In this document: piece by piece, positions 17,263-47,363 of the stretch
Position numbering within the stretch: the first letter of the stretch is position 1
How the letters are laid out: every line of letters starts with the position of its first letter
Sequence record: OR896824.1
From: Escherichia phage SmurfNell
Direction: 5' to 3' (one strand)
Length of the DNA stretch: 64,000 nucleotides
The notes under the pieces: generated by a model
Databases searched by the model: none
What the model was told of the DNA's origin: nothing
Seen by the model: only the letters and a program-made list of their open reading frames with translations
Made by a program: the position numbers and the translations under genes

Positions 17263-19137
17263 TTATTTAGCGCGAATGTCCTGATGTTTCACTCGACCCA
17301 TAACCTCATGTTGTTTACCTGGGTTAAATGGACGAGCACCTGGATTTCCGAGATATCCACAAACTCGACGAGTTACCTCAAGAGTCTCAGGATCATGGTT
17401 GCCACAAATTGGGCATTTGAAACCATCCTCAGAAGCTATAGTTTCACCCAAGAACCCACATTCCCCACAAGAGTCTACTGGAGTATTAATACCAAAGTAA
17501 TGAACTTTACTTGCGGCATAGTTAATAACCCATTCCAGTGCATCTGGGAATCGTTTCATATCCGGCAATTCCACATAGGAAATGCATCCACCAGAAGCAA
17601 TTGGAGTAAAGTTAGACTCATAATCGAACTTCACGTTTGGAGCAACCTTACGTTCTACATCAAGGTGATGGGAATTAGTGTAATATCCTTTAGCCAGAAT
17701 ATCTTCATGCTCTGGAAAATACTCACGGTCTAGGCGACAGAAGCGATCACATAGAGATTCAGATGGTGTAGCATATAGACTATACCCTAATTGAGTCTCT
17801 TCCTTCTTCTGATCAGCACGATCACGCATGTATTGTAGCACACGTTGAACGAACTTGACACAAGACTCAGACATTGTATCTACATCTTTACCAAACATGA
17901 ACTGCAACATTTCGTGGCAGCCTATATATCCTAGAGATACAGAAGCACGCTTGTAGAAATGATCAAACACATATTCATCTGGCCCCAGACGTAATCCAAA
18001 GGCTCCTGACATATAGAGGATGGGTGCAGCTTTAGCTTGGATGTATTTTAAGCGATCAACCCTCCACTCCAATGCTTTTAACGCGGTATCCACACGCAGC
18101 TCAAGTAGATCGAAGAATAGATCAATATTTCCTTCCGCTTCGATAGCGATTCGAGGAAGGTTTACGGAAACAACACCTAAGTTATTACGGCCAGAAGTTT
18201 CACCATCTTCCGCAGCAGCTAGGAATGATCGACAGCCCATAGAGACTTTGTAGTCTCCCGTAACTTCTACAACCTTATCATAACTGATGTAGTCAGGATA
18301 CATACGTTCAGCAGTACATTTCATAGCTAACTTCTTGATATCATAGTTAACATCACCAGGTTTCATATTTACGCCATCACGCAAAACAAATACCAGTTTA
18401 GGGAAGATAGCTGTACGTTTATTGATACCCAAACCATCCATACGCACTTCTAAGATTGCTTTCTGTACAAGACGTGCTTCCCAGGAAGTTCCTAGACCAA
18501 AACCAAAGGTAATAAATGGACTCTGACCATTAGAGTTGAACATCGTATTGATTTCATACTCTAGACCTTGACAGGCATCGTAAACTTCTTTCTCAGTCAT
18601 TTCCGTAGCCATTACAGATGCTTTGGCTTCATCCTTAGTCCAACGCTTTGCAAACGCATGATTCTTATCATAAGACTTACGAACATAAGGAGCCAGTACT
18701 TCATCTAATCGGTCTACAGAAGTACCACCATATTGATGGGAGCTAACCTGAGTAATAATCTGAGCTGTAATAGCAGCCGCAGTAGTAATGGAGTTTGGCG
18801 TACTGATTTCAGCATTACCAACCTTCATACCGTTTTTCAACATATCTTCCAAAGCAACCAGGCAACAGTTAGTCATACCTAACACAGCGTAATCAGCATC
18901 ATGGAAGTGAATATCACCAATCATGTGAGCATTTCGAATCTGGATTGGCATTTCTTCCAGAATCAGATATTTACTCAATTCCCCTGCAAGCATGTCCCTT
19001 TGTGTAGGGAAACGTTCTGAGGGCTTATTGGCATTATTAAACAGCAGCTCTTCATCTGCTGACCCTTCGATAATCTCTTTGCAGTTTCTAATTAACGCCT
19101 GCATTTCTTTATACTTTAGTTCTTCATTGCGATTCAT
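17263..19137 (-). CDS. nrdD: anaerobic ribonucleoside-triphosphate reductase (class III RNR)
   Basis: C-terminal glycyl-radical motif RVCGYLG preceded by a Cys4 zinc ribbon (CGECGF...CPICG); 624 aa. Confidence 0.9.
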   Translation of the reverse strand: MNRNEELKYKEMQALIRNCKEIIEGSADEELLFNNANKPSERFPTQRDMLAGELSKYLILEEMPIQIRNAHMIGDIHFHDADYAVLGMTNCCLVALEDMLKNGMKVGNAEISTPNSITTAAAITAQIITQVSSHQYGGTSVDRLDEVLAPYVRKSYDKNHAFAKRWTKDEAKASVMATEMTEKEVYDACQGLEYEINTMFNSNGQSPFITFGFGLGTSWEARLVQKAILEVRMDGLGINKRTAIFPKLVFVLRDGVNMKPGDVNYDIKKLAMKCTAERMYPDYISYDKVVEVTGDYKVSMGCRSFLAAAEDGETSGRNNLGVVSVNLPRIAIEAEGNIDLFFDLLELRVDTALKALEWRVDRLKYIQAKAAPILYMSGAFGLRLGPDEYVFDHFYKRASVSLGYIGCHEMLQFMFGKDVDTMSESCVKFVQRVLQYMRDRADQKKEETQLGYSLYATPSESLCDRFCRLDREYFPEHEDILAKGYYTNSHHLDVERKVAPNVKFDYESNFTPIASGGCISYVELPDMKRFPDALEWVINYAASKVHYFGINTPVDSCGECGFLGETIASEDGFKCPICGNHDPETLEVTRRVCGYLGNPGARPFNPGKQHEVMGRVKHQDIRAK

Positions 19138-37832: not shown

Positions 37833-37849
37833 ATTAATTAGGAGACTAT

Positions 37850-38538: not shown

Positions 38539-38554
38539 AATTAAGGAAATAAAA

Positions 38555-38677: not shown

Positions 38678-38690
38678 CTGGAGAAAACAA

Positions 38691-38897
38691 ATGGCTAATC
38701 CTGAAATTACAGCACAACGCTTTATGCTGAAAGGAATTATTGCTGAAGCAGGCATGACAGAAGAAGTTGCAGATTTTCAAAAGCAATTCCTCAATATTCT
38801 CACTCAAGCCAAAGAGCTAGGAGAGAAAGAACATGACGCAGCTGTTATGGCAATCACGTTGGTTGGGCTTGATCTGGCAGAAGAATCAGGAGTTTAA
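38691..38897 (+). CDS. hypothetical protein (68 aa)
   Basis: ATG 38691 with GGAG RBS; the ORF-track start 38625 gives an unlikely hydrophobic extension. Confidence 0.45.
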   Translation: MANPEITAQRFMLKGIIAEAGMTEEVADFQKQFLNILTQAKELGEKEHDAAVMAITLVGLDLAEESGV

Positions 38898-38926
38898 CTC
38901 CTCCAAGCAGAAATTTTAAAAATGTA

Positions 38927-38956
38927 CTTGCTTTTTACTTAAGATTTCTGCTATAA
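38927..38956 (+). promoter_or_regulatory. T5-type sigma70 promoter
   Basis: TTGCTT-18-TGCTATAATAG plus TTATATAAATTGATGAAGGAG leader. Confidence 0.6.
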
Positions 38957-38987
38957 TAGTTATATAAATTGATGAAGGAGTTAACGA

Positions 38988-39263
38988 ATGTCAAAACGTG
39001 TTACTGCAACTGGTGTTGAAAGTGCTGTTTGTAAATCCTGGGGTGGCTGGGAAGGTGAGATTGAATGGCTTTATTTCTACGACGTAGAACTTCTGCCGGA
39101 AGTCAAAGCTAAATGTGTGGAAGCCGGTATGGCTCCTGATGCAAAGGCTGATATCGAAATCACCATGCCTAAGCTAGAAGGTCGTGTAATTACGCTCAAT
39201 GATGATTATGAAGAAGTGTTCGAGCTTCCCTTCAAACTGAGTGTCACTCCTAGCTTCGAGTAA
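38988..39263 (+). CDS. hypothetical protein (91 aa)
   Basis: Downstream of promoter 38927-38956; GAAGGAG RBS. Confidence 0.55.
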   Translation: MSKRVTATGVESAVCKSWGGWEGEIEWLYFYDVELLPEVKAKCVEAGMAPDAKADIEITMPKLEGRVITLNDDYEEVFELPFKLSVTPSFE

Positions 39264-39299
39264 CTGATATAGCACTGAGCAAGTTCTTTAAAATTTGAC

Positions 39300-39328
39300 T
39301 TGCTCAGTCCTTCAAATCTTGATATAAT
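39300..39328 (+). promoter_or_regulatory. T5-type sigma70 promoter upstream of the tRNA-Tyr block
   Basis: TTGACTTGCTC ... GATATAATAG; -35 either TTGACT or TTGCTC at 17-nt spacing. Confidence 0.55.
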
Positions 39329-39391
39329 AGTTATCTAATTTGGAAACATATTTAAAAGTGTTTAAACTAGTATTTGAATATTTCTAAATAT

Positions 39392-39482
39392 GTTGGATTA
39401 GTATCGTAGAGGTAGCGAAGCAGACTGTAAATCTGCCGACTCGGAAGGGTCTCGGGTGGTTCGACTCCATCATCCAACACCA
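39392..39482 (+). tRNA. tRNA-Tyr (anticodon GTA), type II
   Basis: Anticodon arm GCAGACTGTAAATCTGC identical to E. coli tRNA-Tyr as recalled; perfect acceptor GTTGGAT/ATCCAAC; long variable arm; CCA. Confidence 0.8.
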
Positions 39483-39489
39483 AATTTAA

Positions 39490-39566
39490 GTCCTGTTAGA
39501 CAAACTGGTAAAGTCACTACCCTTTCAAGGTAGGATTTGCGGGTTCGATCCCCGCACAGGACGCCA
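39490..39566 (+). tRNA. tRNA-Glu (anticodon TTC)
   Basis: Acceptor GTCCTGT/ACAGGAC, anticodon stem-loop CTACC-CTTTCAA-GGTAG, T-arm GCGGG-TTCGATC-CCCGC, CCA. Confidence 0.75.
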
Positions 39567-39573
39567 ATTTCTG

Positions 39574-39651
39574 CATTCCTAGAGTGTTACTGGACAGCAT
39601 GTCGGTCTCCAAAACCGTACGGTCTAGGTTCGAGTCCTAGTAGGTTTGCCA
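39574..39651 (+). tRNA. candidate tRNA-Trp (anticodon CCA); acceptor stem imperfect
   Basis: T-arm CTAGG-TTCGAGT-CCTAG and anticodon hairpin CGGT-CTCCAAA-ACCG are clear, but 5'/3' acceptor pairing has two U-U mismatches. Confidence 0.3.
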
Positions 39652-39657
39652 ATATTT

Positions 39658-39732
39658 GCGACTTTAGCTGAGATGGATTAGCGTCTCCCTGAAAAGGAGA
39701 AGAGGTACGATCGTTACGTACAGGTTGCACCA
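39658..39732 (+). tRNA. tRNA-Phe (anticodon GAA)
   Basis: Acceptor GCGACTT/AGGTTGC, anticodon stem-loop TCTCC-CTGAAAA-GGAGA, CCA; unusual T-loop ATCGTTA. Confidence 0.65.
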
Positions 39733-39749
39733 ATTTGAAGGAGATGCTG

Positions 39750-40022
39750 ATGCATCCTGAAAACTTCTTTATTTACTGTGCGGATAAGTCATTAAAACGC
39801 AGAATTAACAAAGTCTACCATTATCGTGCTAGTCAACAGCCTTATGTTTATGCTTTTGATGGAGAAACCATTCCACTAAAGCAGTTGGCATGTGATTACA
39901 TGGTCTTGAAGAACTTTGATGAGACAAAGATCTCAAGCGTTCATAATCGACAGAATCCATTAACGTGGAAGTATAAGAAGAAAAAGAAAGGCATCAAATT
40001 TCTGAAAAATGTAGTTGCTTAA
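39750..40022 (+). CDS. hypothetical protein (about 90 aa)
   Basis: ORF after tRNA-Phe; AAGGAG RBS. Confidence 0.45.
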   Translation: MHPENFFIYCADKSLKRRINKVYHYRASQQPYVYAFDGETIPLKQLACDYMVLKNFDETKISSVHNRQNPLTWKYKKKKKGIKFLKNVVA

Positions 40023-40043
40023 ATCCTTAAAGTTCTGTATAAT
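40015..40043 (+). promoter_or_regulatory. T5-type sigma70 promoter
   Basis: TTGCTT-17-TGTATAATTA plus TTACATAAATTGAACTGGAG leader. Confidence 0.6.
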
Positions 40044-40072
40044 TATTACATAAATTGAACTGGAGAAGCAAC

Positions 40073-40297
40073 ATGACAGAACAAGAATTAAAAGAACGTA
40101 AGCTGGTAATGCTTCGCTTACTAAACATTTTCTCTGGTATGGATGGTGGTATTGACTTCGTTCAACTACGCACTTTTGTAGAAGAAGCTGAAGGCGAATC
40201 TATTACTAAAATCCTTAAACATATGGGTTTATTACTAGACGCTGCTAATGTAGCTACTGAATATAAATTAGAAGATCTACCGGAGCGTGTTTCATGA
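40073..40297 (+). CDS. hypothetical protein (74 aa)
   Basis: Downstream of promoter 40015-40043; CTGGAGAAG RBS. Confidence 0.5.
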   Translation: MTEQELKERKLVMLRLLNIFSGMDGGIDFVQLRTFVEEAEGESITKILKHMGLLLDAANVATEYKLEDLPERVS

Positions 40298-40485
40298 AAA
40301 TGTTAGTTAAATTTAAGTGTTGTGGTTCTGAACATATTTTCACTCGTTATAGAGAGTTTAAGATGTGTGAGTGTGGTAAGTCAGGCTATGATGCTGGAGA
40401 TGGCTATTATGCTAGATCTATAGGACATTCTAAAGATCTAGAGTTTACTAATCTCGAAAAGCAAGATAAATCGACCGTTGGCTGA
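40294..40485 (+). CDS. small Cys-rich protein (63 aa)
   Basis: CCGSEH...CECGKSG zinc-ribbon-like; overlaps previous stop; 3' end overlaps tRNA-Cys by 14 nt. Confidence 0.45.
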   Translation: MKMLVKFKCCGSEHIFTRYREFKMCECGKSGYDAGDGYYARSIGHSKDLEFTNLEKQDKSTVG

Positions 40486-40547
40486 ATGGCTTAGGCGGAG
40501 GCCTGCAAAACCTCCTTATGTGAGTTCGAATCTCATGCGGTCGTCCA
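40472..40547 (+). tRNA. tRNA-Cys (anticodon GCA)
   Basis: Acceptor CGACCGT/GCGGTCG, anticodon loop CTGCAAA, U73 discriminator as in bacterial tRNA-Cys, CCA. Confidence 0.65.
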
Positions 40548-40554
40548 AATTTTA

Positions 40555-40637
40555 GGGTCGTTAGCCAAGCGGTTTGGCGGTGGACTGTTAATCCATGTCG
40601 AAAGACAACGTAGGTTCGAATCCTACACGGCCCGCCA
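40555..40637 (+). tRNA. tRNA with GTT anticodon (Asn-type) carrying a 13-nt variable arm
   Basis: Acceptor GGGTCGT/ACGGCCC, D-arm GCCA-AGCGGTT-TGGC, anticodon stem-loop GTGGA-CTGTTAA-TCCAT, variable arm GTCGAAAGACAAC, T-arm GTAGG-TTCGAAT-CCTAC, CCA. Confidence 0.6.
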
Positions 40638-40739
40638 TATTCTGTGTAGAGTTAAGTAAACCGGTAGCCAACCAGCTATCATTACTGATATTGAATTCAG
40701 TCACAGATACCATTTTCATTAATAACTGAGGAAATAGAT

Positions 40740-40925
40740 ATGACAACTCGTGCAATTGCTCGACTAGAAGCTGATCGTGATAGTCTGATTAATAATATTA
40801 AGGTTTGGGATCAAGAAATTGAAAACCAAAAACTGACATTAATTCAAGATATGCAGCAACAGAATGCCCGTCGTGAAGCTCTAAAAGAGGTTGAGGAAGC
40901 TATCGAAAAACTCAAAACTGAGTAA
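40740..40925 (+). CDS. hypothetical coiled-coil protein (61 aa)
   Basis: ORF with GAGGAAA RBS between tRNA genes. Confidence 0.45.
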   Translation: MTTRAIARLEADRDSLINNIKVWDQEIENQKLTLIQDMQQQNARREALKEVEEAIEKLKTE

Positions 40926-40933
40926 ATAAATTA

Positions 40934-41010
40934 TGCGATCGGGGCTGGCTTGGTAATGGTACTCCCCTGTCACGGGAGAAAATGTGGGTTCGAATCCCAT
41001 CGGTCGCGCC
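40934..41010 (+). tRNA. tRNA-Asp (anticodon GTC)
   Basis: Acceptor GCGATCG/CGGTCGC, anticodon stem-loop CTCCC-CTGTCAC-GGGAG, T-loop TTCGAAT, G73, CCA. Confidence 0.7.
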
Positions 41011-41087
41011 AATTTTTGCAGGACGCTGGTATAGATAACCACCGCGTGGGAAGTGTCTATATTTAGAGCACTGCAAAACATAATAAT

Positions 41088-41163
41088 ACATCCATAGCTC
41101 AATGGTTAGAGCTACCGCCTCTTAAGCGGAGGGTTCTAGGTTCAAGTCCTAGTGGGTGTACCA
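41088..41163 (+). tRNA. tRNA-Lys (anticodon CTT)
   Basis: Acceptor ACATCCA/TGGGTGT, D-arm GCTC-AATGGTTA-GAGC, anticodon loop CTCTTAA, T-arm CTAGG-TTCAAGT-CCTAG, CCA. Confidence 0.65.
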
Positions 41164-41169
41164 AACATC

Positions 41170-41370
41170 AGAGTAGCGTGATGTACTGCAAAGACCCAAA
41201 GTCCGGGGTGGACTTCTTGATTCAAAGGAGCAGGCATTAATTATCATTCTAGCGTGGTGGAGAGGGGACACCAGCTTGCCGAGGGTAGAAGCTCGTTCGA
41301 TTCGAGTGAAAGAATGGTTCTCGTAAATCCGCACAAGTGATAGCAGGTTCAAGTCCTGCCTAGATTGACT
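41170..41370 (+). other. unresolved tRNA-like / structured RNA region between tRNA-Lys(CTT) and tRNA-Gly(GCC)
   Basis: Contains two T-arm-like hairpins (CTCG-TTCGATT-CGAG; GCAGG-TTCAAGT-CCTGC) and a TGGTG...CACCA hairpin, but no cloverleaf could be folded by hand. Confidence 0.3.
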
Positions 41371-41376
41371 TATTAT

Positions 41377-41450
41377 GCGTTCGTAGTTAAAAGGTATAAT
41401 TTTTGGTTGCCAACCAGAAGTTGAGGGTTCGATTCCCTCCGACCGCACCA
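41377..41450 (+). tRNA. tRNA-Gly (anticodon GCC)
   Basis: Acceptor GCGTTCG/CGACCGC (one U-C mismatch), anticodon stem-loop TTTGG-TTGCCAA-CCAGA, T-arm GAGGG-TTCGATT-CCCTC, CCA. Confidence 0.65.
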
Positions 41451-41698
41451 AATTTAGGTTTCTGCTTCCTAGAGAACTGACGCCTAGATAAACAAGGCGA
41501 TGAGTTTCCGGCCGGTTCTAGTCGCTGAAAATCCTCCCGACCAGGTAGGTGTAAGTAAACGAAAGTTTACTTATTAAGTAAGTCCGACACATCGGCGGGT
41601 GTGTTCTAGTACTTAAAGAAGGTCTCGCAAACTTTCTCGCTAGCATGAGTTGATAGCTCGGTGACTTACCTAATAAGTAAATTTATTAAAAAATGTAG

Positions 41699-41727
41699 TT
41701 GCTATTTAGCTTAATTCTCTGTATAAT
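41699..41727 (+). promoter_or_regulatory. T5-type sigma70 promoter upstream of the tRNA-Pro block
   Basis: TTGCTA-17-TGTATAATAT. Confidence 0.65.
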
Positions 41728-41759
41728 ATATTTTATAAAGTGAGTTAACAAAGAATATT

Positions 41760-41837
41760 CTCCGTGTAGCTCAGTTTGGCCAGAGCGTTTCGTTTGGGGC
41801 GATAGGGTCGGGGGTTCAAATCCTCCCACGGAGACCA
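41760..41837 (+). tRNA. tRNA-Pro (anticodon TGG)
   Basis: Acceptor CTCCGTG/CACGGAG, D-arm GCTC...GAGC, anticodon loop TTTGGGG, T-loop TTCAAAT, CCA; begins about 33 nt downstream of promoter -10. Confidence 0.6.
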
Positions 41838-41843
41838 AACAAT

Positions 41844-41921
41844 TGCGGGTTAGATCTCTGGTAGAGATCGCTAGTCTCATAAGCTAGAAAGAGGTAGGTT
41901 CGATTCCTGCACCCGCTTCCA
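41844..41921 (+). tRNA. tRNA with CAT anticodon (Met or Ile2), U1-U72 mismatch
   Basis: Palindromic D-stem GATC/GATC, anticodon stem-loop CTAGT-CTCATAA-GCTAG, T-loop TTCGATT, CCA; terminal acceptor pair unpaired. Confidence 0.55.
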
Positions 41922-41942
41922 ATTTAATAGAAGGATTTCTAA

Positions 41943-42107
41943 ATGAAATTGTTTCGTTTAAAAGTAAGTGATATACGTTCTAGTAAAGATCGTAAGAAGT
42001 ATCCACTAGCTCACTACGGTAAAGATGAAAACGAAGTGATGGCGGAATTTGGTATTAATCATCCTTACTTGAAAATATACTCTATCAAAGAAGTATACAT
42101 GTATTAA
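41943..42107 (+). CDS. hypothetical small protein (54 aa)
   Basis: Short ORF between two tRNAs, below track cutoff. Confidence 0.3.
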   Translation: MKLFRLKVSDIRSSKDRKKYPLAHYGKDENEVMAEFGINHPYLKIYSIKEVYMY

Positions 42108-42109
42108 AT

Positions 42110-42188
42110 AGATCGCTAGCTCAATTGGTTTAGCAGCACCCGGCTTTTAACCGGAAGGTTCTGGGTTCGAGTCCCAGGCGGTCTACCA
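42110..42188 (+). tRNA. tRNA-Lys (anticodon TTT)
   Basis: Acceptor AGATCGC/GCGGTCT, anticodon hairpin CCGG-CTTTTAA-CCGG, T-arm CTGGG-TTCGAGT-CCCAG, CCA. Confidence 0.65.
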
Positions 42189-42205
42189 ATTTAAAGGAAT
42201 TTGTT

Positions 42206-42523
42206 ATGAATATTAACAAAGTTCTAGAAACAATATCAGAAATGTCTGGTAGAGCTGGAAAACGCTTTACTGAACTATGTATTAAAAATCAAAAAATACC
42301 AGAACATCAATGTCATTATTGTCGAGACTGTGAACAATACCATGAAATGTGTGTGGTTGAAGATTGGATCTGGGATCAGATAAGAAAAGAACAATCCAAA
42401 GATATTGTTCTATGTTTTACTTGTATGGAACGACGTTTAGGACGTAAAATTACTCTTAAAGATCTTAAACATGTTCCCTGTAACGCTCCTTACTTCATTG
42501 GTTTTAGAATGGAGAGATTTTGA
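42206..42523 (+). CDS. Cys-rich putative zinc-binding protein (105 aa)
   Basis: CHYCRDCEQYHEMC...CFTCMERR; AAGGAA RBS. Confidence 0.5.
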   Translation: MNINKVLETISEMSGRAGKRFTELCIKNQKIPEHQCHYCRDCEQYHEMCVVEDWIWDQIRKEQSKDIVLCFTCMERRLGRKITLKDLKHVPCNAPYFIGFRMERF

Positions 42524-42666
42524 TGATAATCTGGTTTTACTTAATGAAACAAAAAGTCAAGCAGTACAACGTATTTTCTGCTGATTTTACTATTGGAATG
42601 TTCTTAGCAGGATTATGTGAGTTTCTGTTTGAAGCATTCTTAATCGGAAGTCTTTTGCTCGGTTAG
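42523..42666 (+). CDS. small hydrophobic protein (47 aa)
   Basis: ATGA overlap with upstream gene; predicted single TM; 3' end overlaps tRNA-Val. Confidence 0.3.
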   Translation: MIIWFYLMKQKVKQYNVFSADFTIGMFLAGLCEFLFEAFLIGSLLLG

Positions 42667-42730
42667 TTTAATGGGAGAACCCCGTCTTTACACGGCGGTT
42701 GCGATAGTTCGATTCTATCACCGAGTACCA
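42657..42730 (+). tRNA. tRNA-Val (anticodon TAC)
   Basis: Acceptor GCTCGGT/ACCGAGT, D-stem GTTT/GAAC, anticodon stem-loop CCGTC-TTTACAC-GGCGG, T-arm GATAG-TTCGATT-CTATC, CCA. Confidence 0.7.
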
Positions 42731-42749
42731 ATTAACTCAAAATAAGGAA

Positions 42750-43109
42750 TTGCAAATGCAATTATCAAGCAAGGTTCAAGGCTACTTCGGTCATGTAACA
42801 ATGGAGTTCGCTATCTCTAAAGGTTGGGACTTCGAACAAGATTTAGCTGAGTTCTACAAAGATATTGATCTGAACGTACCGTACATGGGACTCTCTACTG
42901 GTCAGGAAATCACAGAAGCCGATGTATTCAAGGCAAGTCAAGGTGAGATAACACCTAGTTTTGCCGAGTTCTGGTTAGGAATTACTCTGAAAGATGATGC
43001 ACCGGATGGTGGTGTGGTTATGCAGAGTATGCACTCTGGAAGCTCTGATTACCTTTTCGTTAGCGACGTTAAGGAAATACAAGAAATCTGCAAAAATGTA
43101 CTTGCTTGA
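42750..43109 (+). CDS. hypothetical protein (119 aa)
   Basis: ORF with AAGGAA RBS after tRNA-Val. Confidence 0.55.
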   Translation: MQMQLSSKVQGYFGHVTMEFAISKGWDFEQDLAEFYKDIDLNVPYMGLSTGQEITEADVFKASQGEITPSFAEFWLGITLKDDAPDGGVVMQSMHSGSSDYLFVSDVKEIQEICKNVLA

Positions 43110-43131
43110 TACTTAATTTCTTGTTATAATA
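43103..43131 (+). promoter_or_regulatory. T5-type sigma70 promoter upstream of an ORF-free region and the tRNA-Ala pair
   Basis: TTGCTT-17-TGTTATAATAT plus TTATATAAATTGATGAGGAG leader. Confidence 0.65.
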
Positions 43132-43392
43132 TTTATATAAATTGATGAGGAGAAATCCTCATCAAAGTTCACTAAGGTATTAGCTCGACCTAGGACTGGC
43201 TGCCAAAAAGCACGGTTGCAATTAGACCCCTAATGGCGGGGGATACTTTGCAAGAAGTTCTAGATTAGTCCACTAGATTCAGCGGCAACTGAATAGTGTA
43301 TCGGGTTTGTGAAGAGCGGTTATCCTCTACTGGCTAATGTCTGAGGGTAATACGCACGCCGAGCTAATAGCCTTAGTAAACTTAAAGATTTT

Positions 43393-43466
43393 GGGGATAT
43401 AGTTTAATGGTAGAACATCTGCTTTGCACGCAGAAGACGAGGGTTCAACTCCCCCTTTCTCCACCA
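43393..43466 (+). tRNA. tRNA-Ala (anticodon TGC)
   Basis: Anticodon arm TCTGC-TTTGCAC-GCAGA as in E. coli tRNA-Ala; G3-U70 identity pair; CCA. Confidence 0.7.
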
Positions 43467-43472
43467 AAATTT

Positions 43473-43548
43473 GGGGTCATAGGTTATTTGGTTAAACTTA
43501 CTGCCTTGCAAGCAGTGGAACTCAGTTCAATTCTGAGTGACTCCACCA
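43473..43548 (+). tRNA. tRNA-Ala (anticodon TGC), second copy
   Basis: Acceptor GGGGTCA/TGACTCC with G3-U70, D-stem GGTT/AACT, anticodon stem-loop ACTGC-CTTGCAA-GCAGT, T-arm CTCAG-TTCAATT-CTGAG, CCA. Confidence 0.65.
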
Positions 43549-43561
43549 AATTAGAGGAAGC

Positions 43562-44023
43562 ATGGCTAGAACAGATATATTGGAAAGAAAGGATGAAATT
43601 CTTCTCTGGATAGAAGAAAATCAACCCAAAGCTGAAATTGCTAGAAGATTACGCTGCAAAGTTGATACACTGAATACTTATCTGAAAAAGATGGGAATAC
43701 AATATTCAGGTAACTCTGCTAGAAAAGGTTTTATACGTTCTGAGATACAGGATGGGTATATTCCGGCAGTGAATTACTTTTACAAAAATAGCCCAATATC
43801 TTCTAGTCAGCTTAGAATAAAGATACTACGTGATGGCTTAAAACCTCACAAATGTGAAAATTGTAATTTATCTGAATGGATGGGAGTTCCAATCCCCTTA
43901 GAGTTAGAGCATAAAGATGGTGATCATTATAATAATGAGTGGGATAATTTAGCTTTATTATGTCCCAACTGTCATACACTAACAGATACACATTCAGGTA
44001 AGAATAAAGGAACATACGCGTGA
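43562..44023 (+). CDS. HNH homing endonuclease (inside tRNA cluster)
   Basis: HNH core LELEHKDGDHYNNEWDNLALLCPNCH; flanked by tRNA genes on both sides. Confidence 0.7.
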   Translation: MARTDILERKDEILLWIEENQPKAEIARRLRCKVDTLNTYLKKMGIQYSGNSARKGFIRSEIQDGYIPAVNYFYKNSPISSSQLRIKILRDGLKPHKCENCNLSEWMGVPIPLELEHKDGDHYNNEWDNLALLCPNCHTLTDTHSGKNKGTYA

Positions 44024-44094
44024 TTGATGGAATTGGCATACATACCGTCCTTAGAAGTCGGGTTTTGAGGGTTCGAATCCCTTGTCACGCACCA
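44018..44094 (+). tRNA. tRNA with TAG anticodon (Leu-type) but short variable loop
   Basis: Acceptor GCGTGAT/GTCACGC, anticodon stem-loop CCGTC-CTTAGAA-GTCGG (one U-U), T-arm GAGGG-TTCGAAT-CCCTT, CCA; overlaps the HNH stop codon. Confidence 0.45.
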
Positions 44095-44111
44095 ATTTTG
44101 TAGTAAACAAC

Positions 44112-44203
44112 GGAAGAGCAAATCGATAGGTGACGAAAACCGCTTGGAAAGTGGCTGACTTGTGAAAGCAGGCTTGAGAGTTCGAATCTCTCTTCTTCCG
44201 CCA
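44112..44203 (+). tRNA. tRNA-Ser (anticodon GGA), type II
   Basis: Acceptor GGAAGAG/TTCTTCC, anticodon hairpin CCGC-TTGGAAA-GTGG, long variable arm, T-arm GAGAG-TTCGAAT-CTCTC, G73, CCA. Confidence 0.6.
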
Positions 44204-44209
44204 AACAAT

Positions 44210-44299
44210 AGAAGATAGGACGTAGTGGTACGTAACCGGTCTTGAAAACCGGCCCGCTGTAGTGATACGGTGATGGTTCGACTCCATTATCTTCTGCCA
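44210..44299 (+). tRNA. tRNA-Ser (anticodon TGA), type II
   Basis: Perfect acceptor AGAAGAT/ATCTTCT, anticodon stem-loop CCGGT-CTTGAAA-ACCGG, long variable arm, G73, CCA. Confidence 0.75.
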
Positions 44300-44450
44300 A
44301 ATCTTGAAGTATGCCGGAATCGGTAGACGGGGCTTCCTAAAGGGCGTAAGAGGAACATCCACTCCTCATAAGATACCCGAAAACGAGGCTGAGATAAATG
44401 GTCTATCTCGTGAAGGTTCAAGTCCTTCTGCTTCTTGATATTCAATGGCT
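44300..44450 (+). other. unresolved tRNA-like element (canonical T-arm GAAGG-TTCAAGT-CCTTC, no assignable acceptor stem)
   Basis: Perfect T-arm plus upstream 6-bp hairpin GAGATA-AATGGTC-TATCTC; about 130 nt between flanking tRNAs with no ORF. Confidence 0.3.
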
Positions 44451-44519
44451 CAAAGAGTAACGGTGCACCTTTCTAGAGAATTTTCTGGGCGAGAATCCAG
44501 AAGTAATCAACTAGTTGTT

Positions 44520-44626
44520 AGTGTGATGAGTTTCGGAGAGCCGCCACAATTGAAGTCTTTAGAATGGGTATCGCCCTTTAGCCCCTCCGAAAGGGATAAC
44601 TAGAGATTTCAATTGTGGCTATATCA
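44520..44626 (+). repeat. long-range inverted repeat (GCCACAATTGAA ... TTCAATTGTGGC) enclosing a hairpin and overlapping the 5' end of tRNA-His
   Basis: 12-bp perfect inverted repeat with arms around 44548-44559 and 44609-44620; internal hairpin CCCTTT...AAAGGG. Confidence 0.45.
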
Positions 44627-44691
44627 TAATTGGTTAATGATCCTGATTGTGAATCAGGCCTATGTGGATTCGAATTCCACTAGCCACCCCA
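44615..44691 (+). tRNA. tRNA-His (anticodon GTG)
   Basis: Acceptor GTGGCTA/TAGCCAC, D-stem TCAT/ATGA, anticodon stem-loop CCTGA-TTGTGAA-TCAGG, T-arm GTGGA-TTCGAAT-TCCAC, C73, CCA. Confidence 0.75.
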
Positions 44692-44697
44692 AATATT

Positions 44698-44772
44698 GCG
44701 TCCTTATTTCAATGGAAAGAATGTAAAGCTACGAACTTTACGATCGGGGTTCGATTCCCTGAGGATGCACCA
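44698..44772 (+). tRNA. tRNA-Arg (anticodon ACG)
   Basis: Acceptor GCGTCCT/AGGATGC, anticodon stem-loop TAAAG-CTACGAA-CTTTA, T-arm CGGGG-TTCGATT-CCCTG, CCA. Confidence 0.7.
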
Positions 44773-44796
44773 ATTAACTTATATAGGAAATAAAAT

Positions 44797-44997
44797 ATGG
44801 CTGATTTCTGCAAAGAATGCTCTATCGATATGTGGGGCAAAGATACTGGTGATCTTTCTGGTCTGATTACAGAAGCCGAAGTTAAAGAAGGCTATGGTGC
44901 TGTTGTAATCTGTGAAGGTTGTGGTATTATTCGTGTTGATCATAATGGTAAACGTCTAGAAGAACCAGATCCAATTGCCACGGTTCCTGTAGAATAA
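44797..44997 (+). CDS. small Cys-rich zinc-ribbon protein (66 aa)
   Basis: CKEC...CEGCG motifs; AGGAAA RBS. Confidence 0.5.
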   Translation: MADFCKECSIDMWGKDTGDLSGLITEAEVKEGYGAVVICEGCGIIRVDHNGKRLEEPDPIATVPVE

Positions 44998-45004
44998 AAA
45001 TTAT

Positions 45005-45080
45005 TGGGATGTAGATCAATTGGCAGATCGTCGGCCTCTGACTCCGAAGGTTCCACGTTCGATCCGTGGCATCCCAGCCA
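45005..45080 (+). tRNA. tRNA-Gln (anticodon CTG)
   Basis: U1-A72 and G73 as in E. coli tRNA-Gln; D-arm GATC-AATTGGCA-GATC; anticodon loop CTCTGAC; T-arm CCACG-TTCGATC-CGTGG; CCA. Confidence 0.7.
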
Positions 45081-45086
45081 AATACT

Positions 45087-45162
45087 TGGAGAGTAGTGTA
45101 ACGGTTAGCACAACGGCCTTTGACTCCGTTAATGGTAGGTTCGATTCCTCCTTCTCCAGCCA
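45087..45162 (+). tRNA. tRNA-Gln (anticodon TTG)
   Basis: U1-A72, G73; anticodon loop CTTTGAC; CCA; one mismatch in T-stem. Confidence 0.65.
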
Positions 45163-45168
45163 ATTTAT

Positions 45169-45243
45169 GCGTGATTAGTTCAGTGGCTAGAATAACTGGC
45201 TTCCAACCAGTAGACACGAGTTCGACTCTCGTATCCCGCACCA
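45169..45243 (+). tRNA. tRNA-Gly (anticodon TCC)
   Basis: Acceptor GCGTGAT/ATCCCGC (U4-C69 mismatch), D-arm GTTC-AGTGGCTA-GAAT, anticodon stem-loop ACTGG-CTTCCAA-CCAGT, T-arm ACGAG-TTCGACT-CTCGT, CCA. Confidence 0.65.
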
Positions 45244-45259
45244 AATATAAGAAAACGTT

Positions 45260-45481
45260 ATGGACGTTTTTGAGTTTCGTAATAAAAACCCTAGTAGACG
45301 AGTTTTAATTATTGGTGAAACATATCGAGCTTATGAGCAAGAAGATGGTTCGGTTTTATTAAATGATGAAAAGCAAGGCTATAGTTTTCATCCAGAAGAA
45401 ACATATGAGGAATTTCGTACTAAGTTTCTTTTACCAGACTGGCTAGCAATAGCTGAGCAAAGAGAACCCGAAGATGGCTGA
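45260..45481 (+). CDS. hypothetical acidic protein (73 aa)
   Basis: ORF after tRNA-Gly. Confidence 0.45.
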   Translation: MDVFEFRNKNPSRRVLIIGETYRAYEQEDGSVLLNDEKQGYSFHPEETYEEFRTKFLLPDWLAIAEQREPEDG

Positions 45482-45510
45482 TAATCTAAAGCTAAAGGTA
45501 GATAAACAAA

Positions 45511-45639
45511 TGAAGTGCGTTGAGGTTGAGTTGGGTGAAGAACGTTTAAAACTCTCCTTCGAATTCTTACAACAGTTGGCTATGACAGTAATGTCTGATA
45601 AGTCTCCTGTATTTGAAAAAGAAATTCCGTTGAAATAAC
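45511..45639 (+). CDS. hypothetical small protein (42 aa)
   Basis: Short ORF ending just before tRNA-Thr. Confidence 0.3.
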
Positions 45640-45647
45640 GGGTTTAT

Positions 45648-45722
45648 TGCTCCTAAAGCATTGCTGGCGATGCAGTTGCCTTGTAAGCATCTGAACCGGG
45701 TTCGATTCCTGGTGGGAGCACC
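45648..45722 (+). tRNA. tRNA-Thr (anticodon TGT)
   Basis: Acceptor GCTCCTA/TGGGAGC, D-arm GCAT-TGCTGGCG-ATGC, anticodon loop CTTGTAA, T-arm CCGGG-TTCGATT-CCTGG, CCA. Confidence 0.7.
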
Positions 45723-45737
45723 AAATTTAAAAATTCA

Positions 45738-45766
45738 TTTGCCTTCTCTCTTATTTCTTGTTATAA
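45738..45766 (+). promoter_or_regulatory. T5-type sigma70 promoter
   Basis: TTGCCT-17-TGTTATAATAT plus TTATATAAATTAATGAGAGGG leader. Confidence 0.6.
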
Positions 45767-45797
45767 TATTTATATAAATTAATGAGAGGGAAACCAA

Positions 45798-46091
45798 ATG
45801 AAACGTTATCTTTCTGTCGTGTTCCAAACTGGTGGTCAACGCTACACTTATGAATTTCCTGAGTCCTGGAAAATTAAAGAAGGTGATCAAGTTGTTGTAT
45901 TAACACCTCGTGAAGGCTTCAAAGTAGTAACGGTTAAACAAGTATTTCCAAAAGATCACGAACCATCTAAGTCTATTCAGTACAAGATGATTCATGGTCT
46001 AGTTCGTAAAGTACCACGAACTGAGGTAGAAGTAGATAAGACTGGTGAAGCTAAATACCAGTATACTTCTTACTTAGATGAAATGATGTAA
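45798..46091 (+). CDS. hypothetical protein (97 aa)
   Basis: Downstream of promoter 45738-45766; GAGAGGGAAA RBS. Confidence 0.55.
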   Translation: MKRYLSVVFQTGGQRYTYEFPESWKIKEGDQVVVLTPREGFKVVTVKQVFPKDHEPSKSIQYKMIHGLVRKVPRTEVEVDKTGEAKYQYTSYLDEMM

Positions 46092-46092
46092 T

Positions 46093-46168
46093 GCTCTGAT
46101 AGTTCAACAGGTTAGAACAGGCGACCGATAATCGTCAAATCTTGGTTCGATCCCAAGTCGGAGTACCA
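46093..46168 (+). tRNA. tRNA-Ile (anticodon GAT)
   Basis: Acceptor GCTCTGA/TCGGAGT, D-arm GTTC-AACAGGTTA-GAAC, anticodon stem-loop GGCGA-CCGATAA-TCGTC (C at position 33), T-arm CTTGG-TTCGATC-CCAAG, CCA. Confidence 0.6.
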
Positions 46169-46174
46169 AATTAT

Positions 46175-46247
46175 AGTTAGTTGGCAGAGCGGTTATGCAC
46201 CTCCTTCATACGGAGCGACTACAGTGGTTCAAATCCACTACTAACTA
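46175..46247 (+). tRNA. tRNA with CAT anticodon (Met-type), CCA not encoded
   Basis: Perfect acceptor AGTTAGT/ACTAACT, anticodon hairpin CTCC-TTCATAC-GGAG, T-arm AGTGG-TTCAAAT-CCACT; 3' end followed by CTA rather than CCA. Confidence 0.55.
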
Positions 46248-46619
46248 CTAAACAGAGGATCAGGTAATTGTACCAGATCCTGCTGAGAAGAGAGTCCACA
46301 TTCTATAAATGGCCGGGCGTGACAGCAGGAAGTAGACTGCAACTCCATGCTATCCAGGAGTATAAATGTAGAAGCTAAGACTTTAGATAGCCATTGTCTT
46401 AGCGTGAGCAATCACGTAGTTGCAACAGACCTGGAAGATCGCAACGTTAAAATCAAAGTTCCAGTGCTTATTTATCTAATCGAGACCATCAATCTCACCG
46501 GAATGCTAGCACCCCAACAGTAGCTAGTGATTAGATAATAAGCAAGCCTGCCTTCCAGTTTTTATCTTGCTTCTGGGTTAACAAAAAGCTGAGCCAAATT
46601 CTAACATCAGGGAGATCTA

Positions 46620-46988
46620 ATGAAAGCATATCAAAGTCTTAAGTCTGGCGTAATTAACATTGTTCATAACAATCAGATCATTCAACTATACTCTAAAGAT
46701 GGTGAACTTAAACAGAAAGTTCTAGTTGAAGATCTAGAAGGTATCACACCTCACTTTGACCCTGAGGCCTTTCGCATTGTAGATGTGGAAGTGGTTCCCC
46801 AAGTCGAGGGTGGTCAGCACCTAAATGTCAATGTGTTAAGCCGTGATCAGCTTTTGGATGCGCAGAAACATCCTGAAAAATATCCTCAGTTGACCATCCG
46901 TGTCTCTGGCTATGCTGTTCGATTTAACGCATTGACGCGTGAACAACAGAACGACGTTATTAGTCGTACATTTACTCAGGCGATATAA
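46620..46988 (+). CDS. grcA: autonomous glycyl radical cofactor (GrcA/YfiD-like)
   Basis: C-terminal [57 protein letters not shown] is near-identical to E. coli GrcA as I recall it, including the RVSGYAV glycyl-radical motif. Confidence 0.85.
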
Positions 46989-47069
46989 TGGGGTTTGGAT
47001 ACGATTTCTCCCAGCTACGCAAGGTAGTCGAGCAAACTCCATTTATCTCCCAAGTTTTAGGAGAAATGT

Positions 47070-47363
47070 GTGGATCGAGCATTAAGACGCCATCACTGGC
47101 AACGTGTGAAAAACAACCGAAAGAAGTATTGGACAGTATTCCCTCATGAAGAAAGTCCTAAGCGGTTAGGCATTATTACTACCACGCCTTGCATCTGTTC
47201 TTGTTGGATGTGTGGGAATCCTCGCAAATACTATAAGAATAGTAAAGCAGGTATGAAAATCTCGGAGATTAAAAAGATGGATGCAATGATCTTAGGTATC
47301 GGATACGGCGAAGGTATTTCAAATGATGAATTTGATGGCTTCGTAGGTTTCGGTGAAGGTTAA
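47070..47363 (+). CDS. hypothetical Cys-containing protein (97 aa)
   Basis: ORF (probable GTG start) followed by a terminator at 47372-47410. Confidence 0.45.
   Translation: MDRALRRHHWQRVKNNRKKYWTVFPHEESPKRLGIITTTPCICSCWMCGNPRKYYKNSKAGMKISEIKKMDAMILGIGYGEGISNDEFDGFVGFGEG

What the first reader, a model, noticed from the sequence alone, without database searches (positions are those of the whole stretch)
46620..46988. GrcA (YfiD) glycyl-radical spare-part homolog in a phage that also encodes NrdD
The C-terminal 60 residues are almost identical to E. coli GrcA including the RVSGYAV radical motif, which implies recent acquisition from an enterobacterial host. GrcA rescues oxygen-damaged pyruvate formate-lyase; in a phage that also carries class III RNR (nrdD, 17263-19137) this suggests investment in anaerobic or microaerobic metabolism during infection. 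No radical-SAM activase (NrdG/PflA-like) is evident in this window, so activation presumably relies on host enzymes.
Basis: partly seen in the sequence, partly recalled or inferred. Interest (0 to 1): 0.6.

Follow-up and report, generated by a model that had tools for sequence, protein, structure and literature searches.

The report
Phage copy of PFL spare-part protein
This is a real, conserved gene of T5-like phages for a small "spare-part" protein that most likely repairs the host's oxygen-damaged pyruvate formate-lyase; the same kind of phage gene was shown to do this in phage T4 in 2001, so the finding is correct but ordinary, and it was not recently copied from the host.

Summary
The ORF at 46620-46988 (+, 122 aa) is real. 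Its C-terminal half is a PFL-type glycyl-radical module (Pfam Gly_radical E=4e-18) with the exact RVSGYAV loop. The best solved-structure match is E. coli GrcA/YfiD.

"Almost identical" is overstated. The last 62 residues are 79% identical to GrcA, 77% to PflB and 84% to TdcE, and the DNA is only 70-74% identical.

The window is a T5-like phage (Demerecviridae, Epseptimavirus). About 440 T5-like records carry the gene and about 1,585 phage records have a homolog. One is T4 vs.6 (Y06I), which was shown biochemically to be radicalised by host PFL activase and to restore oxygen-cleaved PFL.

Recent acquisition from the host is not supported:
- GC matches the phage background.
- dN/dS is 0.06-0.16.
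- The gene predates the Epseptimavirus/Tequintavirus split.
- No bacterial sequence is closer than other phage homologs.

NrdD is real. No NrdG- or PflA-like activase is found in the window or in the rest of two relatives' genomes.

One addition: in several other phage lineages the homolog sits inside nrdD-nrdG operons. This fits PFL supplying formate, the reductant of this NrdD type.

Verdict: already known, low interest.

The parts
46620..46988 (+). GrcA-like gene (122 aa plus stop): standalone PFL-type glycyl-radical 'spare part' protein, member of phage family phrog_1209
   Evidence: ORF. Pfam PF01228 E=4e-18. phrog_1209 E=7e-47, matched full length 1-122. PDB 6owr E=2e-29. dN/dS 0.06-0.16.
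46610..46614 (+). Shine-Dalgarno sequence GGGAG, 5 nt upstream of the ATG
   Evidence: Read directly from the sequence.
46620..46799 (+). N-terminal half (residues 1-60): divergent, phage-type counterpart of the YfiD N-terminal region that helps binding to cleaved PFL and radical installation
   Evidence: Not matched by the bacterial GrcA profile TIGR04365, which covers only residues 54-121, but covered by phrog_1209. Shares MKAYQ and DPE.F with T4 vs.6. dN/dS 0.06-0.14. AF2 predicts a beta-rich fold, as it does for a bacterial GrcA control. Role taken from PMC8683613.
46800..46985 (+). C-terminal PFL-mimic module (residues 61-122), equivalent to PflB residues 698-759
   Evidence: 77-84% identical to PflB, TdcE and GrcA C-termini. 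36 invariant columns across phage and bacterial GrcAs. AF2 gives helix, beta-hairpin, helix. Best fold hit is YfiD 6owr.
46899..46919 (+). Gly loop RVSGYAV (residues 94-100), with radical glycine G97 at 46908-46910
   Evidence: Sequence. Identical to the heptapeptide that E. coli PFL-AE radicalises, whereas the NrdD loop RVCGYLG is not accepted (PMC13450708).
46988..47149 (+). 53-aa ORF whose ATG overlaps the GrcA-like stop codon (TAATG); possibly translationally coupled; function unknown
   Evidence: phrog_31464 E=3e-32. Annotated as a CDS in IrmaTschudi and DaisyDussoix.
17263..19137 (-). nrdD: class III (anaerobic, formate-type) ribonucleotide reductase without an ATP-cone; a functionally linked partner, not part of the GrcA-like gene
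   Evidence: NCBIfam PRK09263 840.7 bits, cut-off 657. 54% identical to E. coli NrdD. Conserves C175, M382, C384, the four Zn-site Cys and G681 of E. coli NrdD; alignment starts at E. coli residue 84.
17347..17367 (-). NrdD Gly loop RVCGYLG (residues 591-597, radical G594)
   Evidence: It differs from the RVSGYAV loop of the GrcA-like protein.

Best explanation
[quoted passage not shown] Proposed mechanism: during infection at low oxygen, oxygen cleaves the host's active pyruvate formate-lyase (PflB, possibly also TdcE) at the radical glycine G734. The 122-aa phage protein carries a copy of the lost C-terminal module. It docks onto the cleaved enzyme with the help of its N-terminal half. Host PflA (PFL activase) then puts a radical on its G97. 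This restores conversion of pyruvate to acetyl-CoA and formate without synthesis of a new 85-kDa subunit. The phage needs its own copy because T5-type infection shuts down and degrades the host genome, so host grcA cannot be induced (my inference from general knowledge of T5). The likely benefit is continued fermentative ATP production and, more specifically, a continued supply of formate, the reductant used by the phage's own formate-type NrdD for dNTP synthesis.

What is shown here: homology, the exact Gly loop, purifying selection, absence of a phage activase, and operon linkage to nrdD/nrdG in other phage lineages.

What is inferred: activation by PflA, binding to cleaved PFL, and the formate link to NrdD.
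For: - The C-terminal 62 aa are 77-84% identical to PflB, TdcE and GrcA. RVSGYAV and 36 columns are invariant across phage and bacterial GrcAs.
- The predicted fold of residues 75-117 matches the glycyl-radical domain; the best PDB hit is YfiD 6owr.
- The protein matches phrog_1209 over its full length, the same family as T4 vs.6. T4 Y06I (annotated GrcA in T4) is radicalised by PFL-AE and restores oxygen-cleaved PFL (Wagner 2001, as described in PMC8683613).
- PFL-AE accepts RVSGYAV but not the NrdD loop RVCGYLG (PMC13450708). The phage's own NrdD carries RVCGYLG.
- Both halves are under purifying selection, dN/dS 0.06-0.16. The gene is present in about 440 T5-like records.
- No activase is found in the phage.
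- Homologs are embedded in nrdD-nrdG clusters in at least four other phage groups.
- NrdD keeps the Met-Gly-Cys thiyl loop of the E. coli formate-using enzyme. Formate is the hydrogen donor of E. coli NrdD (Mulliez 1995, cited in PMC13450708).
Against: - There are no biochemical or genetic data for the T5-type protein.
- It scores below NCBI's GrcA equivalog cut-off (118 against 170 bits), because its N-terminal half is the most divergent of the phage group. The validated T4 protein also fails that cut-off at 151 bits.
- In this window the gene is 27 kb from nrdD and on the opposite strand. No nrd gene lies within 10 kb of it in 29 T5-like loci. The RNR link therefore rests on other lineages.
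- Two lineages place the gene next to the aerobic nrdAB genes rather than nrdD.
Confidence: 0.75

Rival explanations
1. Direct spare part for the phage (or host) class III ribonucleotide reductase: the protein would replace the oxygen-cleaved C-terminal Gly loop of NrdD rather than that of PFL.
For: Homologs sit between nrdD and nrdG in several phage lineages. Some GenBank records call the protein 'ribonucleotide reductase subunit'. Reviews state that spare parts for glycyl-radical enzymes other than PFL have not been found but are conceivable (PMC8683613; PMC13450708).
Against: The whole 60-aa module, not only the loop, is conserved with PFL at 77-84% identity, with 36 invariant columns shared with bacterial GrcA. 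There is no detectable similarity to the C-terminus of the phage's own NrdD. The loop is RVSGYAV, not RVCGYLG. The T4 homolog was shown to act on PFL. T5-like phages lack NrdG, and the gene is far from nrdD.
Confidence: 0.04
2. Decoy or inhibitor: the protein soaks up host PflA or occupies PFL to reduce formate and acetyl-CoA production and redirect pyruvate during infection.
For: The protein carries the PflA substrate loop but has a divergent N-terminal half. In YfiD that region controls binding to cleaved PFL and radical installation.
Against: Every residue invariant in functional GrcA and PFL C-termini is retained, including parts that contact the PFL core rather than PflA. The T4 homolog restores activity. 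Linkage with formate-consuming NrdD argues for making formate, not blocking it.
Confidence: 0.06
3. Spare part specialised for TdcE (2-ketobutyrate/pyruvate formate-lyase) or another PFL paralogue rather than PflB.
For: The C-terminal module is slightly closest to TdcE, 52/62 against 48/62 for PflB, and shares ALTREQQ and [10 protein letters not shown] with it.
Against: The differences amount to four residues in a very conserved, short module. Other positions ([13 protein letters not shown]) match GrcA. TdcE and PflB share the Gly loop and the same activase (PMC13450708), so the two targets are not mutually exclusive.
Confidence: 0.1
4. Recently captured host gene fragment with no selected function in the phage (a passenger).
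Against: Identity is only 70-76% at the DNA level. GC matches the phage background. dN/dS is 0.06-0.16. The gene is conserved in about 440 T5-like genomes of two genera. It has an intact start codon and Shine-Dalgarno sequence.
Confidence: 0.02

Closest known systems
Bacteriophage T4 Y06I (gene vs.6), autonomous glycyl radical cofactor
   Same: It is a phage-encoded protein of about 120 aa in the same PHROG family, phrog_1209, matched over its full length. It has the same MKAYQ start, the same RVSGYAV loop and a PFL-like C-terminus. It depends on the host PFL activase. It was biochemically shown to be radicalised by PFL-AE and to restore oxygen-cleaved PFL (PMC8683613).
   Different: Overall identity is only 51%. 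The T4 3' half is 176/180 nt identical to E. coli grcA, indicating recent recombination with the host, whereas the T5-type gene is 70% identical and compositionally phage-like. T4 also encodes NrdG; T5-like phages do not. The genomic context differs: T4 has the gene in the tk-vs-regB region, while here it follows the tRNA cluster.
E. coli GrcA (YfiD), NCBIfam TIGR04365, PDB 6owr
   Same: It is a standalone protein with a C-terminal 60-residue copy of the PFL glycyl-radical domain. Identity is 79% over 62 aa with the same Gly loop. It is the best structural match.
   Different: The N-terminal 50 residues are not alignable by phmmer or by the GrcA profile. The score of 118 bits is below the equivalog cut-off of 170. 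The gene is phage-encoded, with phage composition.
C-terminal glycyl-radical domain of PflB and TdcE (formate C-acetyltransferases)
   Same: 77% and 84% identity over the last 62 residues. RVSGYAV is identical.
   Different: The protein has only 122 aa and lacks the catalytic barrel of roughly 700 residues. TIGR01255 scores 84 bits against a cut-off of 994. GenBank names such as 'pyruvate formate-lyase' and '2-ketobutyrate formate-lyase' are therefore misleading.
GrcA-like genes inside nrdD-nrdG operons of jumbo phages (for example Klebsiella phage Muenster and Yersinia phage fHe-Yen9-03)
   Same: They are homologous over 74-89% of the query at 58-69% identity. They share the C-terminal signature LSRxQLxDAQK...DVISRTFT.
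   Different: There the gene is operonic with nrdD and nrdG. In this T5-like window it is 27 kb from nrdD, and the phage has no nrdG.

Membership tests
Pfam PF01228 Gly_radical | Score above the gathering threshold of 22.2 bits | tested here: met
   66.3 bits, E=4.1e-18, residues 62-103.
[quoted passage not shown] | Small standalone protein (about 120-127 aa) consisting of an N-terminal region plus a copy of the PFL C-terminal glycyl-radical module, without a catalytic barrel | tested here: met
   122 aa. Residues 61-121 align to PflB 698-758 and residues 50-121 to GrcA 53-126.
[quoted passage not shown] | Gly loop RVSGYAV, the PFL-AE substrate, with the radical glycine conserved | tested here: met
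   Residues 94-100 are RVSGYAV, with G97. Specificity of PFL-AE for this loop is from PMC13450708.
[quoted passage not shown] | Radical installed by PFL activase, and activity restored to oxygen-cleaved PFL | not testable with these tools
   Shown only for E. coli YfiD and T4 Y06I (PMC8683613).
NCBIfam TIGR04365 spare_glycyl (bacterial GrcA equivalog) | Whole-protein score at or above the curated cut-off of 170 bits | tested here: not met
   118.3 bits, only residues 54-121 matched. Controls: E. coli GrcA 234 bits; the validated T4 vs.6 scores 151.1 bits and also fails. The cut-off therefore defines the bacterial equivalog, not the function.
NCBIfam GrcA2 (NF008341) and GrcA3 (NF038360) short forms | Score at or above the cut-off (145 and 158 bits); protein of about 80 aa without the long N-terminal region | tested here: not met
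   90.1 and 116 bits. The protein has a 60-aa N-terminal half.
PHROG phrog_1209 (phage GrcA-like proteins, including T4 vs.6) | Full-length match to the family profile | tested here: met
   E=7.2e-47, residues 1-122 on profile positions 1-121 of 121. T4 vs.6 gives E=6e-62 over its full length. PHROGs v4 lists the family as 'unknown function'.
GrcA/YfiD N-terminal region | Homology of residues 1-60 to the YfiD N-terminal half, which aids binding to cleaved PFL | tested here: inconclusive
   There is no phmmer or TIGR04365 match before residue 50-54, and phmmer with residues 1-58 finds only the T5-like clade. However, phrog_1209 spans both this region and E. coli GrcA residues 21-127. The multiple alignment shows shared motifs. 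AF2 predicts a similar beta-rich N-half for this protein and for a bacterial GrcA.
Formate C-acetyltransferase (PflB/TdcE), as many GenBank records name it | Full catalytic enzyme of about 760 aa; TIGR01255 cut-off 994 bits | tested here: not met
   84.4 bits, matching only profile positions 683-743. The protein is 122 aa.
Ribonucleotide reductase subunit, as some GenBank records name it | Homology to NrdD or NrdG, or an NrdD-type Gly loop RVCGYLG | tested here: not met
   There is no NrdD or NrdG family hit. The best local alignment to the phage NrdD is spurious, score 36, and lies outside the Gly loop.

The most novel reading that the evidence does not exclude
Phage GrcA-like proteins may be an accessory of the phage class III ribonucleotide reductase system. 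They would be kept mainly so that host PFL continues to make formate, the reductant of the formate-type NrdD, when oxygen intrudes during infection. That would explain why the gene is fused into nrdD-nrdG operons in several unrelated large phages and co-occurs with nrdD in T5-like and T4-like phages. In the most radical version, which I consider unlikely, the protein would act directly on oxygen-cleaved NrdD and be the first spare part for a glycyl-radical enzyme other than PFL.
Probability: 0.3. Interest if true: 0.5.

Novelty: already known. Interest (0 to 1): 0.2.

Why it matters
The gene shows that T5-like phages, like T4, invest in keeping host fermentative metabolism alive at low oxygen, the condition in the gut where these Salmonella and E. 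coli phages live. Both of their glycyl-radical proteins, NrdD and the spare part, depend entirely on host activases (NrdG and PflA).

Practically, the result corrects widespread misannotation. The same protein is called 'pyruvate formate-lyase', '2-ketobutyrate formate-lyase', 'ribonucleotide reductase subunit', 'acetyltransferase-related' or 'hypothetical' in hundreds of records, and PHROGs lists the family as having unknown function.

The recurrent nrdD-grcA-nrdG operon in large phages offers a testable link between PFL repair and anaerobic dNTP synthesis. The basic biology was established in 2001, however.

Tried and rejected
- **Recent host acquisition.** Rejected on four grounds. blastn against 5,426 E. 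coli genomes finds only the 3' half, at about 75% identity. Ungapped comparison gives 70-74% nucleotide identity. GC and GC3 match the phage background. dS between T5-like genera is substantial.
- **Hidden activase.** A CxxxCxxC scan of all six frames, plus tblastn with E. coli PflA and NrdG, was run against the window and the rest of the STK8t and IrmaTschudi genomes. Nothing significant was found; the best hit was E=0.006 over 32 aa inside a tail-fibre gene. The 97-aa ORF at 47070-47363 contains CICSCWMC. It is too small for a radical-SAM enzyme and matches only phrog_4499, of unknown function.
- **The 93-aa ORF downstream of nrdD as an NrdG relic.** The only support is a 22-aa tblastn match at E=0.68. 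The ORF has no cysteine cluster and falls in phrog_7953, of unknown function. Not supported.
- **A folded N-terminal domain distinguishing the phage protein from disordered YfiD.** AF2 predicts beta strands at pLDDT 75-87. A control run on a bacterial GrcA gives an equally confident beta-rich N-half, although YfiD residues 1-60 are disordered by NMR. The prediction therefore does not discriminate.
- **N-terminal homology by single-sequence search.** phmmer with residues 1-58 found only the T5-like clade.
- **RNA element in the 371-nt spacer upstream (46249-46619).** No Rfam match at E of 1 or below. Promoter and terminator scans were not above the shuffle background.
- **Phylogenetic placement of the C-terminal module.** It is too short and too conserved. 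The best non-clade identities are 53/61 (jumbo phage) against 52/61 (TdcE, Vibrio phage and one unnamed 127-aa homolog), which is not resolvable.
- **Literature on a T5 GrcA or a GrcA-NrdD link in phages.** Nothing was found in the held library. Wagner 2001, Bowman 2019 and the T4 genome review could not be read.

Full report
**1. The observation**

- An ORF runs from the ATG at 46620 to the TAA at 46986-46988 on the + strand and encodes 122 aa. GGGAG lies 5 nt upstream of the ATG.
- Residues 62-103 match Pfam Gly_radical at 66.3 bits, E=4e-18.
- Against all PDB sequences the best hits are E. coli GrcA/YfiD (6owr, E=2e-29, residues 50-121) and PflB (E=2e-26, residues 61-121 on PflB 698-758).
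- The Gly loop RVSGYAV is at residues 94-100, with the radical glycine at G97.

The feature is therefore real and at the stated coordinates. The wording "almost identical to E. coli GrcA" is too strong. Over the last 62 residues identity is 79% to GrcA, 77% to PflB, 84% to TdcE and 76% to T4 vs.6. Nothing before residue 50 aligns to GrcA by phmmer.

**2. Where the window comes from**

- The 1.6 kb around the gene matches 443 phage records at 80-99% identity. These are nearly all Salmonella and Escherichia phages of 104-125 kb. The best is Salmonella phage STK8t at 98.7%.
- STK8t and IrmaTschudi are classified as Demerecviridae, Markadamsvirinae, Epseptimavirus. The window is therefore a T5-like phage.
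- The gene is the first CDS after a cluster of 30 tRNA genes at 33938-46248.
- By tblastn, 1,585 phage records encode a homolog. About 440 are at 80% identity or more (the T5-like clade). The rest are mostly T4-like, jumbo and Vibrio or Aeromonas phages at 50-75%.
- A 121,750-bp IMG/VR contig, the length I recall for the T5 reference genome, carries the gene at 94% identity. The Tequintavirus DaisyDussoix carries it at 90%.
- Public annotations are inconsistent: "autonomous glycyl radical cofactor", "pyruvate formate-lyase", "2-ketobutyrate formate-lyase", "ribonucleotide reductase subunit", "acetyltransferase-related" and "hypothetical".

**3. What is already known**

T4 gene vs.6, annotated GrcA in the T4 RefSeq record, is Y06I. 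According to Andorfer et al. 2021 (PMC8683613), Wagner et al. 2001 showed the following:
- E. coli YfiD and T4 Y06I are radicalised by the PFL activase.
- Both restore activity to oxygen-cleaved PFL.
- These are the only two validated spare-part proteins.

The window protein and T4 vs.6 both match phrog_1209 over their full length, at E=7e-47 and E=6e-62. They share the MKAYQ start and a DPE.F motif. The kind of gene is thus known, and the T5-type member is already deposited and often correctly named.

**4. Family membership**

- The protein passes Pfam Gly_radical.
- It fails NCBI's bacterial GrcA equivalog TIGR04365, scoring 118.3 bits against a cut-off of 170 with only residues 54-121 matched.
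- The validated T4 protein also fails that cut-off at 151.1 bits, whereas E. coli GrcA scores 234. The cut-off therefore delimits the bacterial equivalog rather than the function.
- The T5-type N-terminal half is the most divergent in the phage group. phmmer with residues 1-58 finds only its own clade.
- The protein is not a formate C-acetyltransferase: TIGR01255 scores 84 bits against a cut-off of 994.
- It has no similarity to the Gly loop of the phage's own NrdD.

**5. Recent acquisition from the host is not supported**

- blastn against 5,426 complete E. coli genomes finds only nucleotides 184-369, at about 75% identity. The best hits are pflB and tdcE rather than grcA.
- Ungapped identity over the last 186 nt is 70% to grcA and 74% to pflB and tdcE.
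- Gene GC is 41.2% and GC3 35%, against 40.1% for the window and 33-39% GC3 for nrdD and nrdA. E. coli grcA is 47.9%.
- Against the Tequintavirus DaisyDussoix, dS is 0.37 overall and 0.74 in the N-terminal half, with dN/dS 0.16. Against IrmaTschudi dN/dS is 0.06. The gene therefore predates the split of the two genera and is under purifying selection in both halves.
- In a search of 5.8 billion proteins, the T5-like clade (86-99% identity) is followed by a gap. The next hits are jumbo-phage proteins, and named bacterial GrcAs reach 73-76% over about 58% of the query.
- Over the 61-residue module, the best non-clade identity is 53/61 (jumbo phage SE_PL/Munch type). TdcE, a Vibrio phage protein and one unnamed 127-aa homolog reach 52/61.

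The contrast with T4 is instructive. The last 180 nt of T4 vs.6 are 176/180 identical to E. coli K-12 grcA, and identity collapses upstream.

**6. NrdD and the missing activases**

- The ORF at 17263..19137 (-) is a bona fide NrdD: PRK09263 840.7 bits against a cut-off of 657, and 54% identical to E. coli NrdD.
- It conserves the residues aligned with E. coli C175, M382, C384, the four Zn-site cysteines and G681, within the loop RVCGYLG. The alignment begins at E. coli residue 84, so the protein lacks the ATP-cone.
- No NrdG or PflA homolog and no plausible radical-SAM protein exists in the window. The same holds for the remaining 35 kb and 15 kb of STK8t and for the rest of IrmaTschudi.
- Dwivedi et al. 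2013 already noted that many phages, including T5, EPS7 and SPC35, carry nrdD with nrdAB but without nrdG (PMC3653736).

**7. Structure**

- AlphaFold2 with a 25-sequence alignment gives mean pLDDT 77. The C-terminal half has helix 75-83, hairpin 92-95/98-101 with G97 at the tip, and helix 107-117.
- The only significant PDB fold hit is YfiD 6owr (E=3e-6). Glycyl-radical domains of other enzymes follow at rmsd 0.6-2.7 Å over 43-50 residues.
- The N-terminal half is predicted to be beta-rich. A control on a bacterial GrcA gives the same result with higher confidence, although YfiD residues 1-60 are disordered in solution. No structural difference can be claimed.

**8. Mechanism**

- PFL-AE radicalises the heptapeptide RVSGYAV but not RVCGYLG. 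It also activates TdcE, which shares the loop (PMC13450708).
- The phage protein has the PFL loop and keeps all 36 columns that are invariant across phage and bacterial GrcAs.
- The best-supported mechanism is therefore the YfiD/Y06I one. The protein binds oxygen-cleaved host PFL, with its N-terminal half assisting as described for YfiD. Host PflA installs the radical on G97, and PFL activity is restored.

**9. The link to ribonucleotide reduction**

The GrcA-like gene sits in or beside RNR gene clusters in several other phage lineages:

| Phage or locus | Gene order |
|---|---|
| Klebsiella jumbo phage Muenster | nrdD, GrcA-like, one ORF, nrdG; tightly spaced |
| Yersinia phage fHe-Yen9-03 and three further ~350-kb phages | GrcA-like between nrdD and nrdG |
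| 104-kb contig (L019) | nrdD, GrcA-like, nrdG contiguous |
| 330-kb contig (L018) | GrcA-like 2.8 kb downstream of nrdG |
| 235-kb phage (L068) | nrdA, nrdB, nrdD, nrdG, GrcA-like within 3.7 kb |
| Vibrio-phage-like loci (L014, L015, L017) | GrcA-like adjacent to nrdAB |
| 29 T5-like loci and most T4-like loci | no nrd gene within 10 kb |

Formate, a product of PFL, is the hydrogen donor of E. coli NrdD (Mulliez 1995, cited in PMC13450708). The window's NrdD keeps the Met-Gly-Cys loop of that enzyme. I therefore propose that one selective benefit of the phage spare part is to keep formate available for the phage NrdD. I found no paper in the held library making this link for phages, but I could not read the 2001 paper or the T4 genome review. 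A direct role on NrdD is unlikely, because the whole module is conserved with PFL.

**10. Verdict**

The functional assignment, the presence of NrdD and the missing activase are right. The evolutionary inference is wrong. The feature is an already known and widely deposited kind of phage gene, so interest is low. A modest testable extension is the coupling of PFL repair to formate supply for NrdD.

Noticed in passing
L008:7558-7920 (T4 NC_000866.4 63557-63919, gene vs.6) against L005:2067-2450 (E. coli K-12 grcA): T4 vs.6 looks like a chimera. Its last 180 nt are 176/180 identical to E. coli grcA (59/62 aa identical). Upstream of that point identity drops to 9-16 per 30 nt, and GC falls from 46% to 34.5%. 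This suggests a recent recombination that overwrote the 3' half of a phage-type gene with host sequence.
   Followed up: partly
L013:4104-7070; L016:2785-7047; L019:3185-5830; L018:1-5366; L068; L049; L050; L052: In several large phages (Alcyoneusvirus-type jumbo phages, a 104-kb contig, a 330-kb contig and a 235-kb phage) the GrcA-like gene lies inside or directly after an nrdD-nrdG cluster. In Vibrio-phage-like loci (L014, L015, L017) it abuts nrdAB.
   Followed up: partly
window 16883-17164 (-): A 93-aa ORF sits immediately downstream of nrdD, where nrdG lies in other genomes. It belongs to phrog_7953 (unknown function) and has no cysteine cluster. Its only resemblance to E. coli NrdG is a 22-aa tblastn match at E=0.68.
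   Followed up: partly
window 17263-19137 (-): The phage NrdD aligns to E. coli NrdD only from residue 84 onward, so it lacks the N-terminal ATP-cone. Neither the window nor the rest of two close relatives' genomes encodes NrdG.
   Followed up: yes
window 47070-47363 (+): A 97-aa ORF two genes downstream has a basic N-terminus and a cysteine cluster TPCICSCWMCGNPRKYY, which fits CxxxCxxC. It belongs to phrog_4499 (unknown function), has no NCBIfam hit and is too small for a radical-SAM enzyme. Relatives annotate this stretch differently.
   Followed up: partly
window 46988-47149 (+): A 53-aa ORF has its ATG overlapping the stop codon of the GrcA-like gene (TAATG), which suggests translational coupling. 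It belongs to phrog_31464 (unknown function) and is conserved and annotated in IrmaTschudi and DaisyDussoix.
   Followed up: no
window 46249-46619: A 371-nt non-coding spacer lies between the last tRNA (Met) and the GrcA-like gene. It has no Rfam match at E of 1 or below and no promoter or terminator signal above the shuffle background. In some relatives (STK8t, SUT_E1620, PYC03) the homologous 1.6-kb stretch spans about 234 bp more, indicating an insertion somewhere in it that I did not locate.
   Followed up: partly
window 19331-19822 (+): A 163-aa ORF lies between nrdD and phoH. By eye it carries an HNH-like motif (HIDRDKENNRIENLR). IrmaTschudi annotates no CDS in its shorter nrdD-phoH gap of about 350 nt, against about 860 nt here. 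It is probably a free-standing homing endonuclease inserted next to nrdD.
   Followed up: no
window 15656-16507 (-): A 283-aa ORF lies 0.75 kb downstream of nrdD on the same strand. The corresponding gene in IrmaTschudi is annotated 'Sir2-like protein'.
   Followed up: no
GenBank records under hits H1-H75; PHROGs phrog_1209: Annotation of this gene is inconsistent. Identical or near-identical proteins are named pyruvate formate-lyase, 2-ketobutyrate formate-lyase, putative formate acetyltransferase, ribonucleotide reductase subunit, acetyltransferase-related protein or hypothetical protein. PHROGs v4 lists the family as 'unknown function', although it contains the biochemically characterised T4 vs.6.
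   Followed up: yes
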